Positions 8,701 through 63,200 of a stretch of DNA of 64,000 nucleotides are shown here, piece after piece (position 1 is the stretch's first letter; the number at the start of each line of letters is the position of its first letter). The stretch comes from Octopus vulgaris. Taxonomy: Eukaryota. The notes beneath the pieces were generated by a model. The model was not told the origin of the DNA, made no database searches, and worked only from the letters and a program-made list of their open reading frames with translations. The position numbers were made by a program, and so were the translations under genes. The stretch spans positions 114,638,001-114,702,000 of the forward strand of contig OX597817.1 in NCBI GenBank assembly GCA_951406725.2. Direction: 5' to 3'.

Positions 8701-9140
8701 CACACACACATATTTATATATATAGTAGTAGTAACAGAAAAGAGGAATTTCGATTTAATTCTCACAGTGCAGCATAGCCAATTCTGAGAATGAGAGAGAG
8801 AAAAAAAATAGAGAGATAGGAGAGATAGATAGACAGATAGAAGGAGGAGGGGTGCTAGATGGGCCCTAGAACTTGGCTGGTATTTTGCATATCAGTATTA
8901 GTTCAAATTTTGGCACAAGGCCAGCAAATTGAGTGGCGAGGTGTAAGTCAATTACATCAACTCTAGTACTCAATTCATACTTTAAGGCAAAATTGACCTC
9001 GGTGGAATTTGAACTGCGAATGTAAGGATGGTAGAAAGGCCGCTAAGTGTAGAGAACTGGAAAAATACTGCAACATATGCTATTTAATAATGTAAGCTCT
9101 CTGCCACACAGTTTTCAGCTAGAGAATTTCAATCACAAAG

Positions 9141-9400
9141 TGATACCATGTAAAAGCTCTCATGTGGTACCATGTAAAAGTGCCTGTGTGGCATCACATA
9201 AAAGCACTGATGCGGTTCCACATAAAAGCATCCATGTGGTGCCATGTAAAAGCACTCATGCAGTGCCATGTAAAAGTGTCCATGTGGCACCATGTAAAAG
9301 TGTCCATGTGGCACCATGTAAAAGTGCCTGTGTGGTGCCATGTAAAATCACCCGTGTGGTGCCATGTAAAAGTGCCCATGCAGTGCCACATAAAAGCTTC
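9141..9400 (+). repeat. 24 bp minisatellite (~11 units, GTGCCATGTAAAAGTGCCCATGTG) at the front of a family D element that runs to 9562
   Basis: Direct periodicity; continues into AGGAAGGGCATCCAGC and a (GAT)n tail. Confidence 0.9.
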
Positions 9401-13015: not shown

Positions 13016-13437
13016 CAAGGCAGCGAACTGGCAGAAACGTTAGCATTCCGGGCGAAATGCTTAGCGGTATTTAGTCTGCCGTTACGTTCTGAGTTCAAAT
13101 TCTGCTGAGGTCAACTTTACCTTTCATCCTTTCAGGGTTGATAAAGTACCAGTTATGCACCAGTGCTAGCACCTGTTGATGTAATCGACTTAATCCCTTT
13201 GTCTGTCCTTGTTTGTCCCCTCTATGTTTAGCCCCTTGTGGGCAATAAAGAAATAGGTATTTCGTCTGCTGTTACGTTCTGAGTTCAAATTCTGCCAAGG
13301 TTGACTTTGCCTTTCATCCTTTCGGGGTCGATAAATAAAGTACCAGTTACACACTGGGGTTGATGTAATCGACTTAATCCCTTTATCTGTCCTTGTTTGC
13401 CCCTTCTATGTTTAACCCCTTGTAGGCAATTAAGAAA
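13016..13437 (+). mobile_element. SINE family A dimer within one TSD
   Basis: Full unit plus 5'-truncated unit; 15 bp TSD TAAGAAAGGACTGTT at 13001-13015 and 13438-13452. Confidence 0.92.
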
Positions 13438-14137
13438 TAAGAAAGGACTGTTGATATGTGCCTGGGTTGTTTCTTATAAGTTTTGTTTGATATTGTATGC
13501 TGCAGATAATCTTTATGGATGGTAGGTATCAAAGTTCAAGTTCAAGTATTTTCTGCTGATTGTGAGCATGTGATACAATCCATCAGTCCATATGGCCCTC
13601 TATTCCTAGTAGGGCTATATGAGTGGAGTCTGGAACCGTGTGATTGGGAAGCAAGCTTCTTACCAAACATCCATGCCTGTGCATATTAATTACCTTGTAT
13701 TCTTTTTGGTGTTGGTGAATTTGCTAAAATTTATTTTCAAAGTTAAAGTTTGAGAGTTATTGTTTAGCACCCACCCCAAGGGCAGCTCTGATTGAGCAAA
13801 CCTATGATGAAATGGCATTCCAGCCTTAACCGTTTTATCCCTTAAAAGGTATCTCAGACTGTAGGGTCCAATATGTCCCACCTTCCCTCTCTGTGTTTCT
13901 GTCAGTTTGTCTGCCTGCCTGTCTGTCTCTTTGTCTGTGGATTTGTCTGTCAGCCTATCTTCCCCTTTATCTGTCTTCCTATCTTTCTGTCTTCCTGTCT
14001 TCCTATCTGTGTATGTGTGTGTGTCTGTCTGTCTATGTTTGCGTCTCTCTCTCTTTCTCTCTGTCTCTCCCTCTCTGTATCTCTCCTCTCCCCCTCTCTC
14101 TTTTCTAACTTCCAAGACAATAAAGTTTAATTTCAGA

Positions 14138-35439: not shown

Positions 35440-36033
35440 AATAAGACCCGGCAGGACAAGTGAGACCATAACCCATGGCCTCTACCTGGGATGTAGCCAG
35501 TCCACTTATGCATACCTTTCCTTCTTGGGACACAAAACTCTAGTCGTGAAGACCTGTTGAGGCAAGTGGAAATCAGAATCAAAATCGAAATCAATCAACA
35601 TCAATGGAAATTGTAGCTGTGATACCAGTGCCGGTGGCACGTAAGCGAACCATCCGAACGTGGCCATTGCCAGCGCTGCCCCGACGGGCCTCTGTGCTGG
35701 TGGCACATAAAAAGCACCATCCGATCGTGGCCGTTGCCAGCCTCACCTGGCCCCCATACTGGTGGCATGTAAAAAGCACCATCCGATCGTGGTCGTTGCC
35801 AGCCTCGCCTGGCCCCCGTATTGGTGGCACGTAAAAAGCACCATCCGACCGTGGGCGTTTGCCAGCCCCGTCTGGCATGTAAAAAGCACTCACTACACTC
35901 ACGGAGTGGTTGGCGTTAGGAAGGGCATCCAGCCATAGAAACGTTGCCAGATCAGACTGGGCCTGGTGCAGCCTTCTGGCTTCCCAGACCCCAGCATGGA
36001 AAGCGGACACTAAATGATGATGATGATGATGAT

Positions 36034-61596: not shown

Positions 61597-62162
61597 AGGT
61601 GCAGGTGTGGCTCTGTGGTAAGAAGTTTGTTTCCCAGCCATATAGTTCTGGGTTCAGTCCCACTGCAGAGCACTTTGAGCAAGTGACTTCTATTTTAACC
61701 CCAGGCTTTGGAAGTACATTTCATAAACAGAAGCTGAAAGAAGCCTATTGTATATATATTCTTTCATTCTTTTACTTGTTTCAGTCATTTGACTGTGGCC
61801 ATGCTGGAGCACCACCTTTAGTTGAACTAAATTGACTCCAGGACTTATTCTTTGTAAACCTAGTACTTATTCTATCAGTCTGTTTTGCCAAACTGCTAAG
61901 TGACAGGGAGATAAACACACCAATATTAGTTGTCAAGCGATAGTGGGGTACAAACAAAGACACAAATAACAATCACACATATATATATATACATATATAT
62001 ATATATACAACAGGCTTCTTTCAGTTTCCATCTACCAAATCCGCTCGCAAGGCTTTGGTCAGCCTAAAATGATAGTAGAAGACACTTGCGCAAGATGCCA
62101 CACAGTGGGACTGAACCTGGAACCATGTGGTTGGGAAGCTGGCTTCTTACCACACAACCACT
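61597..62162. mobile_element. Inverted pair of family B elements (+ head 61597-61750; - full copy 61765-62162)
   Basis: Alignment to other B copies. Confidence 0.85.
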
Positions 62163-62167
62163 ATATA

Positions 62168-62741
62168 ATTAATAGAGGTCTCAAAAGTGACAGAGGGTTC
62201 TGACTAGTATCGCTTTTGCTAAAGATAAGGGTTAAACTAACTCAAAAGCCACAAAATCCCTGTCTTAATGACTGACATTAAGACAGTAATTATGTGGCTT
62301 TTGAGTTAATTTAAATCTTATCTTTAGCAAAGCAGTGTTAGTCAGTACTCTCTGTCATTTTTGTGACCTCTATTAATTTTGCCTTTAGGTTCCAATTGCT
62401 AATAAGCCACTCTTTTTAATTTGTTTACACTTTTACTGTTTTGAAAATCAGCACACATTATCTATGGTTTTCTTATAAGTTGAGTTTAACTCTAGGTGTT
62501 AAGAGCCGCTGATGAGGATTAAGATGGTCTACATCAAAATTGGAAATCGCGGTCCAGCATTATATGAGGGGGATTTACCTCCCTTTGTCAGTCATTAAGA
62601 CAGTGATTTTGTGGCTCTCGAGTTAGTTTACCTATCATCTTTAGTAAAAGCAGTGTTAGTCAGTACCCTCTGTCATTTTTGTGACCTCTATTAATGTTGC
62701 CTTTTGGTTCTAATTGCTAATAAGCCTCCCTTTTTAATTTG

Positions 62742-62743
<2 letters not shown>
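62168..62743 (+). mobile_element. Retrozyme / Penelope-pLTR-like element: inverted arm plus ~1.5 tandem 317 nt monomers with a hammerhead
   Basis: 62168-62276 is the reverse complement of 62276-62377; 62276-62425 is repeated at 62593-62743; hammerhead lies between; ends in (TA)n. Confidence 0.75.
62505..62558 (+). ncRNA. Type I hammerhead ribozyme motif, slightly decayed
   Basis: GCCG-CTGATGA-g-GATT-aa-GATG-gtcta-CATC-aa-AATT-g-GAAA-T-CGCG-G-TC-CAGC; intact core, palindromic CGCG loop III, GUC triplet; one CpG-type mismatch in stem I. Confidence 0.75.
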
Positions 62744-62793
<50 letters not shown>

Positions 62794-63035: not shown

Positions 63036-63200
63036 AGGTGCAGGAGTGGCTGTATGGTAAGTAGCTTGCTTACCAACTACATGGTTCTGAGTTTAGTTCC
63101 ACTGCATGGTACCTTGTGCATGTGTCTTCTACTATACCACCTTTCAAAGTGGTCCCACAGCATTGCTGCTGTCAATGAATGAAATAAGTAAAAGATAAAA
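63034..63200 (+). mobile_element. Family B head fused to tail (large internal deletion)
   Basis: TAGGTGCAGGAGTGGCTG...GTCTTCTACTATA joined to GTGGTCCCACAGCA...GAAATAAGTAAAAGA. Confidence 0.78.

What the first reader, a model, noticed from the sequence alone, without database searches (positions are those of the whole stretch)
62168..62743. Retrozyme-like unit: 317 nt tandem monomer with one hammerhead ribozyme and a 5' fold-back arm
Seen: a ~150 bp block repeats with a 317 nt period (62276 and 62593). A hammerhead with intact CTGATGA/GAAA core, palindromic CGCG loop III and GUC site lies between the repeats (62505-62558). A ~108 bp inverted copy at the 5' end forms a ~210 bp hairpin. There is no ORF, and the unit ends in (TA)n. 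Known: Penelope-like elements carry minimal hammerheads in pseudo-LTRs arranged in direct and inverted orientation, and metazoan non-LTR retrozymes are short tandem hammerhead units that can yield circular RNAs. Inference: this is ~1.5 rounds of reverse transcription of a ~317 nt self-cleaved, possibly circular, RNA. It may be an uncharacterised cephalopod retrozyme family.
Basis: partly seen in the sequence, partly recalled or inferred. Interest (0 to 1): 0.78.

Follow-up and report, generated by a model that had tools for sequence, protein, structure and literature searches.

The report
Ribozyme circle hitchhiking on Penelope transposons
This is a decayed copy of an old, protein-free 336-base repeat that carries a hammerhead ribozyme motif and is scattered through the genome in several hundred places, and the way its copies begin and end suggests it was likely pasted in from a small, probably circular RNA by the enzyme of a Penelope-type jumping gene.

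Summary
The anatomy is real: 317-nt period, one type I hammerhead, 110-bp inverted arm, (TA)n end. It is one decayed copy of an ORF-less ~336-nt family of several hundred copies, ~11% diverged. The family hammerhead is well formed (AUC site, one compensatory pair). This copy's has three broken pairs, and its GUC is a mutation.

Across 118 loci the unit behaves as a closed circle: 129 segments read through the cut site and none exits into an ORF. Copies end at two fixed internal sites, ~141 and 189 nt past the cut, often in microsatellites. 62 of 132 insertions are head-to-head pairs, and their inverted arms start at the same two sites. The hairpin is therefore an insertion product, not an RNA arm. 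These are Penelope hallmarks. Two copies are fused directly to one Neptune-type family, the likely helper.

Verdict: a new member of the non-LTR retrozymes (non-autonomous Penelope-like elements), with unusually direct genomic evidence for Penelope mobilisation. Cleavage, expression and circular RNA are untested. The scan noted a similar layout in another genome (e1-7908855) and judged it a plain Penelope end; that reading fits poorly here.

The parts
62010..62167 (+). High-copy SINE-like repeat whose short TA tail received the insertion (left flank, not part of the element)
   Evidence: copies at 61597-61702 and 63036-63141; very high depth; loose ends at 62156-62162 continue into (TA)n
62168..62277 (-). 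Inverted arm: a second, shorter copy of the unit (consensus q141 back to q32; q1 = first base after the cut). Its outer end is the family's first preferred 3' end
62270..62743 (+). Direct segment, 1.47 turns of the unit (q32 through one full turn to q189)
62276..62592 (+). One 317-nt period; lacks about 19 nt of the ~336-nt family unit, including 15 nt of the long stem below the ribozyme
   Evidence: (table 4)
62490..62573 (+). Type I hammerhead with extended stem I: stem I 62504-62508/62555-62559, core 62509-62515 and 62543-62546, stem II 62516-62542 (5+4 bp around an AA/AA loop), stem III 2 bp with palindromic CGCG loop; decayed in this copy
62554..62555 (+). Predicted cleavage site (after C62554); family triplet AUC, here GUC
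   Evidence: position from hammerhead rules (established knowledge), cleavage untested
62696..62743 (+). 'Tail': the ~47 nt between the two preferred 3' ends (q~141 and q189); 62743 is the family's main end
62744..62791 (.). (AT)n microsatellite at the right end, the inferred target site; no distinct target-site duplication seen
   Evidence: 63 of 127 preferred ends abut a dinucleotide run, against 8.5% of random positions

Best explanation
The element is a decayed genomic copy of a non-coding ~336-nt hammerhead unit (a non-LTR retrozyme) that was likely copied into microsatellites in trans by the reverse transcriptase and GIY-YIG nuclease of a Neptune-type Penelope-like element, probably from a circular RNA. 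Steps: (1) inferred: a locus with two hammerheads in tandem is transcribed, cut twice (perhaps as a dimer through the palindromic loop III) and the monomer closes into a circle; (2) inferred from fixed ends: the Penelope protein cuts both strands of a (TA)n/(CA)n target and starts reverse transcription inside the RNA, at q189 or about q141; (3) shown in the DNA: copying runs back through the cut site and on around the unit for up to 2.1 turns, stopping at scattered points; (4) shown in the DNA, mechanism inferred: about half of the insertions have a second copy in the opposite orientation that starts at the same sites, giving head-to-head pairs and, by chance here, a near-perfect hairpin. This copy has one damaged hammerhead and 1.47 turns; about 1.6-1.7 turns are needed to hold two cut sites, so it would be a dead end.
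For: Closed unit: 129 segments read through the cut site, 69 through q170-215, 49 exceed one turn; 5' ends within 40 nt of the cut are spread evenly (65 ends, one at 0 and one at +2). Fixed 3' ends: of 194 outer ends 75 lie at q180-192 (35 at q189), 47 at q130-146 and 1 at the cut; of 70 segments picked only by a 20-mer at q20-39, 45 end in these two zones (p 3e-13). Twin priming: 62 of 132 insertions are head-to-head, short arms end in the zones in 40 of 62 (zones are 11% of the circle). Same template: turns and arms of one insertion agree at 74% of polymorphic sites against 53% between loci, and none of 247 columns is turn-specific. Hammerhead: 89% of cells paired against 27-44% for slid controls, and a stem I pair that is CG in 18 and UA in 11 of 36; the consensus circle folds at -96.8 kcal/mol, z -5.2. 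Helper: two direct fusions, both to one old family ('PLE-B'): L127 (inverted unit arm joined to PLE-B 5' part) and L202/L233 (left arm ends at PLE-B's own 3' end, right end is unit q13-142 joined to the last codons of the PLE-B ORF, both in TA runs). PLE-B has RT, a C-terminal GIY-YIG and a CxxxxCxxC motif before it, which PMC8557442 gives for Neptune and Nematis. Internal initiation at two sites, a tail between them, extension of both strands and AT-rich targets were shown in vitro for a Poseidon element (PMC11167929, passages).
Against: No RNA data: expression, cleavage and circles are not shown. The family is old (10.7% non-CpG divergence, best long segment 92%), and only 11 of 117 complete hammerheads keep core and stems. 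No long array or young source locus was found among 131 loci. The helper link rests on 2 fusions, which could be nested insertions followed by deletion. The unit's 3' end shows no significant similarity to PLE-B's (30, 142 and 106 of 500 shuffles as good), so what the protein would recognise is unexplained. PLE-B copies differ by about 14.5% and unit copies by 19% (different methods), so ages match only roughly. Covariation rests mainly on one pair that may be a single subfamily change. In the Poseidon system hammerhead cleavage was not needed for insertion (PMC11167929), which weakens the need for a circle.
Confidence: 0.6

Rival explanations
1. Same non-autonomous unit and same Penelope helper, but the template is an uncut linear tandem transcript (or repeated jumps between linear monomers), with no circular RNA; the hammerhead is a slow or vestigial leftover.
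For: Every DNA-level result also fits a homogeneous tandem transcript. Uncleaved RNA was the main substrate for the Poseidon protein (PMC11167929), and 8 of 9 Xenopus retrozyme dimers did not cleave in vitro (10.64898/2026.07.22.740005). There is a mild excess of 5' ends at q181-195 (17 ends at a coverage of 125), though two queries were biased towards that.
Against: No array longer than 2.09 turns in 131 loci; no turn-specific variants; the unit folds as a strongly self-paired circle closing at the cut site; the hammerhead has a long extended stem I and a compensatory change; mussel and coral units of this type do give circles (PMC7229834).
Confidence: 0.25
2. An ordinary 5'-truncated end (pseudo-LTR plus tail) of an autonomous Penelope whose ORF was not found; tandems are partial tandems.
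For: Inverted arm, tail, hammerhead and microsatellite target are all standard for Penelope ends (PMC8557442, PMC3846280). 12 of 118 loci have Penelope protein matches somewhere in the locus. Only the 40 best of 306-740 candidates were scored per search. An earlier scan note reached this verdict for another genome.
Against: Partial tandems would have variable periods and long copies would run into a 3' UTR and ORF; here long copies loop back into the unit (69 read-throughs). The flanks shared between loci next to the unit read as microsatellites and other common repeats, not a common ORF entry. No unit sequence in 48 GIY-YIG-centred loci or in 19 other PLE-B loci, whose 3' UTR is different. 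0 of 13 new loci picked with the region upstream of the ribozyme have Penelope protein matches. The unit may still descend from a lost Penelope end.
Confidence: 0.1
3. A DNA-level product: a dispersed repeat locally duplicated and folded back by slippage or snap-back synthesis, the hammerhead being incidental.
For: The window junction is an almost perfect palindrome.
Against: The same period and the same two ends recur at unrelated loci on many contigs; 41 of 44 simple head-to-head junctions are not palindromic; the hammerhead fold is kept family-wide.
Confidence: 0.03

Closest known systems
Metazoan non-LTR retrozymes (coral, Mytilus, axolotl; PMC7229834; vertebrate survey 10.64898/2026.07.22.740005)
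   Same: Non-coding 150-450 nt unit, GC under 45% (39% here), one type I hammerhead per unit, short stem III with palindromic loop, self-paired fold, Penelopes in the same genome; Mytilus units are 350-390 bp and also lack the usual tertiary-contact bases.
   Different: Here mostly under two turns, no long arrays, old and decayed; circles and cleavage not shown. Fixed internal 3' ends, head-to-head arms and fusions to a Penelope are seen here; 'inverted' does not occur in the main text of PMC7229834, and in the preprint 'tail' is absent and 'inverted' and 'chimer' occur only in references.
Endonuclease-positive Penelope-like elements (Poseidon PAc of Anolis, PMC11167929; Neptune; Adineta Pen families, PMC3846280)
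   Same: Two internal reverse-transcription starts downstream of the hammerhead with a tail between them, inverted 5'-truncated copy at the 5' end, AT-rich or microsatellite targets.
   Different: No ORF; starts lie about 141 and 189 nt past the cut (about 85-92 nt in PAc by my subtraction from the paper's numbers); tail about 47 nt against 30-40; the hammerhead has a long extended stem I, unlike the minimal Penelope form (PMC4209133); no detectable sequence link to any Penelope end examined here.
Non-autonomous Chlamys elements such as MRC1 (PMC8557442)
   Same: ORF-less, pseudo-LTR-forming, head-to-tail insertions moved by a Penelope-like partner.
   Different: Those resemble their partner at the 3' end, and the paper describes the clade as lacking canonical hammerheads; this unit has a hammerhead and no significant 3' similarity to its likely partner.

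Membership tests
non-LTR retrozyme | Short non-coding unit (150-450 nt), low GC | tested here: met
   about 336 nt, 39% GC, longest stop-free frame 42 codons
non-LTR retrozyme | Type I hammerhead in each unit | tested here: met
   family alignment and pair counts; the window copy has 3 broken pairs; Rfam scores are below threshold
non-LTR retrozyme | Head-to-tail tandem with two consecutive hammerheads | tested here: met
   met by the family (L004, L007, L017), not by the window copy, which has one; longest 2.09 turns
non-LTR retrozyme | Canonical loop 1-loop 2 tertiary contacts | tested here: inconclusive
   stem I has a 4x4 internal loop and an extension, but stem II is 5+4 bp, not the canonical 4 bp; Mytilus retrozymes also lack the contacts
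non-LTR retrozyme | Self-cleavage of the transcript | not testable with these tools
   needs in vitro transcription
non-LTR retrozyme | Accumulates as circular RNA | not testable with these tools
   no run on record as RNA was listed; DNA read-through of the cut site is compatible
autonomous Penelope-like element | RT plus GIY-YIG ORF between pseudo-LTRs made of this sequence | tested here: not met
   no ORF entry or exit in 131 loci apart from 2 different fusions to a family with another 3' UTR
Penelope-type insertion | Two internal 3' ends separated by a tail | tested here: met
   q~141 and q189
Penelope-type insertion | Inverted 5'-truncated copy at the 5' end | tested here: met
   62 of 132 insertions
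Penelope-type insertion | Microsatellite or AT-rich target | tested here: met
   63 of 127 against 8.5%
non-autonomous Penelope derivative | Sequence homology to a partner's pseudo-LTR | tested here: not met
   not significant against four Penelope ends; no match in 48 Penelope loci; most Penelope families of the genome were not examined

The most novel reading that the evidence does not exclude
A retrozyme with no sequence relationship to any Penelope end parasitises a specific Neptune family in trans: the Penelope enzyme starts at two fixed internal sites on a ribozyme-made RNA circle, rolls through the ligation junction, and can switch between circle and its own mRNA within one insertion. 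The genome would then hold a fossil record of rolling-circle target-primed reverse transcription and name both the enzyme and the start sites.
Probability: 0.4. Interest if true: 0.7.

Novelty: new member of a known kind. Interest (0 to 1): 0.5.

Why it matters
Which enzyme moves animal retrozymes has been a proposal since 2020 (Penelopes as 'strong candidate', PMC7229834), supported in 2026 by co-occurrence and pseudo-LTR trees (10.64898/2026.07.22.740005). This family adds a different kind of evidence, read from the insertions themselves: Penelope-type start sites, twin-strand inversions, target choice and two fusions with one named partner. It makes the question testable at base resolution with the published Penelope in vitro assay. 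The limits: the kind of element is known, this copy is dead, and the family looks extinct.

Tried and rejected
Rfam on the window: no hammerhead; the strong hits are microRNA models matching the hairpin or TA runs. Public RNA: no RNA holder listed; contigs of four runs were laid at 80% likeness and only show that the family occurs in runs labelled organisms B, C and D, and weakly A; this says nothing on expression. A genome-wide scan with my covariance model was not available, so counts come from DNA and short-pattern searches and are lower bounds. The model found no family-type hammerhead in 35 Penelope loci except an unrelated one in L044. Young 781-aa Penelope as parent: no DNA match. PLE-B as parent: 0 of 19 other loci carry the unit. 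Homology of the 3' end to Penelope ends: looked plausible by eye, not significant; a shared 13-mer scored 30 of 500. Of the 12 loci with Penelope protein matches I read the junctions of 5: L106 and L202 are direct fusions; L018, L102 and L185 are separated from the unit by TA runs or other sequence; the other 7 lie about 600 nt or more away and were judged by coordinates only. Snap-back origin of the arm rejected. Loci that overlapped another locus were dropped before counting (30 duplicates); the 13 loci were checked separately and are not in the end counts. Scan notes by sequence and by place: nothing.

Full report
Observation. The hammerhead of this copy is damaged: it folds no better than shuffles, has 3 of 12 core-flanking pairs broken and gets no Rfam hammerhead hit. 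The window lies in a 2.8-Gb animal genome of 227 contigs; an octopus-like host is my recalled guess, not a tool result.

The family. Searches of the own genome gave 426, 740 and 306 candidates for three parts of the unit, 40 scored each. An exact 20-mer occurs 71 times, its reversed control 0 times; with 10.7% divergence that implies roughly 700 segments (my arithmetic). From 118 non-redundant loci I built a consensus of 333 nt; read-through copies mostly carry 2-3 more bases near q180-200, so the unit is about 336 nt. It is 39% GC, has no frame over 42 codons, and folds as a circle at -96.8 kcal/mol (z -5.2 against 100 shuffles), with the hammerhead at the tip of a long stem. Divergence is 10.7% at non-CpG and 21.4% at CpG sites, and the best long segment is 92% identical: the family is old. 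Contigs from runs labelled with three other organisms carry it, with the consensus letters at the positions mutated in the window.

The ribozyme. In 36 aligned copies the motif is a type I hammerhead: 5-bp stem I, a 4x4 internal loop and a 9-bp extension; stem II of 5+4 bp around an AA/AA loop; 2-bp stem III with a palindromic CGCG loop; AUC triplet. 89% of cells pair, against 27-44% when partners are slid; one stem I pair is CG in 18, UA in 11 and UG in 5 copies. Related sequences can pass the shuffle control without structure, so I give that little weight; the compensatory pair may be one subfamily event. Of 117 complete hammerheads 49 keep the core and 11 keep core and stems. Rfam gives two good copies weak HH9 hits below threshold. 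PMC4209133 (passages) says such short palindromic stems III work as dimers; that is an inference here.

How copies begin and end. With q1 as the first base after the cut, 118 loci hold 132 insertions. Of 194 outer 3' ends, 75 fall at q180-192 (35 at q189), 47 at q130-146 and one at the cut. One query ended at q189 and biases this, so I repeated it on 70 segments picked only by a 20-mer at q20-39: 45 end in the two zones (p 3e-13), 13 exactly at q189, none beyond q198. 63 of 127 such ends abut a dinucleotide run, against 8.5% of random positions. 5' ends are scattered, with no pile-up at the cut; 129 segments cross it, 69 cross q170-215, 49 exceed one turn, the longest 2.09. 62 insertions are head-to-head; the shorter arm ends in a preferred zone in 40, and only 3 of 44 simple junctions are near-palindromic. 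The window's hairpin is thus a chance case of two independently primed copies stopping at about the same place. Turns and arms within an insertion share variants (74% agreement at polymorphic columns, 53% between loci) and no column of 247 differs by turn, as expected from one RNA species.

Is it just a Penelope end? The genome is rich in Penelopes (6136 GIY-YIG candidates; RT plus GIY-YIG). The unit matches none of 48 such loci. 12 of 118 unit loci and 0 of 13 further loci have Penelope protein matches; no ORF entry or exit recurs. An earlier scan note on another genome (e1-7908855) prompted this test; here the fixed period and the loop-back argue against that reading, though only part of the family was seen.

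The likely helper. Two loci are direct fusions, both to one old family, PLE-B. In L127 an inverted arm (q522 to q314) joins the PLE-B 5' region with no spacer. In L202/L233 the left arm is PLE-B's own 3' UTR ending at its own first end site, and the right end is unit q13-142 joined to the last codons of the PLE-B ORF, both ends in TA runs: what a single insertion with a template switch near the cut end of the unit would leave. The other 19 PLE-B loci lack the unit, and PLE-B's normal end is a different sequence with its own two ends about 35 nt apart. PLE-B has a CxxxxCxxC motif before a C-terminal GIY-YIG, given for Neptune and Nematis in PMC8557442 (passages); 'Neptune-type' rests on that alone. 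Against: two cases only, no significant end similarity, and ages that match only roughly (14.5% against 19%, different methods).

Mechanism. Shown in DNA: closed unit, two fixed 3' ends, read-through of the cut, head-to-head pairs, microsatellite flanks, two fusions. Inferred: internal target-primed reverse transcription on both strands by a Penelope protein, as shown in vitro for an Anolis Poseidon (PMC11167929, passages). Inferred and less sure: a circular template (0.6), against an uncut tandem transcript (0.25). An insertion needs about 1.6-1.7 turns to hold two cut sites (my arithmetic); this one has 1.47.

Known or new. It fits the non-LTR retrozymes of PMC7229834 (passages and section 14 read) and the view that these are non-autonomous Penelope sequences (10.64898/2026.07.22.740005; parts 1-3 of 5 read, abstract to discussion; its supplements are closed). 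Inverted pseudo-LTRs, tails and trans-mobilisation are described in PMC3846280 (passages). Four searches listed no paper on a cephalopod retrozyme or on these insertion fingerprints for a retrozyme; most subscription journals, Repbase, Dfam and the supplements of PMC7229834, which may list more species, were not seen. Verdict: new member of a known kind, interest 0.5, earned by the mechanistic evidence across the family and not by this copy.

Noticed in passing
L044 3064-3137 (-); L238-L252: A second, older dispersed family with a hammerhead of the same shape (A-rich loops in stem II, palindromic AAUU loop III), 179 candidates; self-repeats spaced 384-439 nt in four loci, some inverted copies, (TA)n end about 215 nt past the cut in L044; Penelope protein match in only 1 of 15 loci. 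Probably a second retrozyme family.
   Followed up: partly
L061, L064 and many 781-aa frames: A young, probably active Neptune-type Penelope: intact 781-aa RT/GIY-YIG frame, pseudo-LTRs 99-100% identical, preceded by an overlapping stop-free frame of up to 479 codons with no Pfam match. Two frames are unusual for a group described as single-ORF; it may be an intron-split 5' exon.
   Followed up: partly
PLE-B 3' end (L222-L235) and L061 5060-5110: By eye both autonomous families carry a minimal hammerhead-like motif in which the usual C3-G8 pair reads U3-A8, with palindromic loops III. The reading is mine, numbering recalled, not tested.
   Followed up: no
window 62573-62585 (family q17-28): The family consensus holds the reverse complement of a perfect 5' splice site, like the 5' end of U1 snRNA (recalled), paired in the fold with a donor-like stretch just before the ribozyme; the window copy has lost that partner strand.
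   Followed up: no
L129 3396-5620: Another Penelope family with an inverted end and a ~45-nt tail inserted in the same (TA)n as a unit copy; L185 and L044 show similar sharing of one microsatellite by different elements.
   Followed up: partly
L127 4490-4760: The PLE-B copy fused to the unit ends in a GIY-YIG piece that other PLE-B copies do not match, so this insertion may join three RNAs.
   Followed up: no
window 9140-9397, 13066-13439, 35633-35876: Short tandem arrays with 24-, 184- and 62-nt periods, probably parts of common repeats.
   Followed up: no
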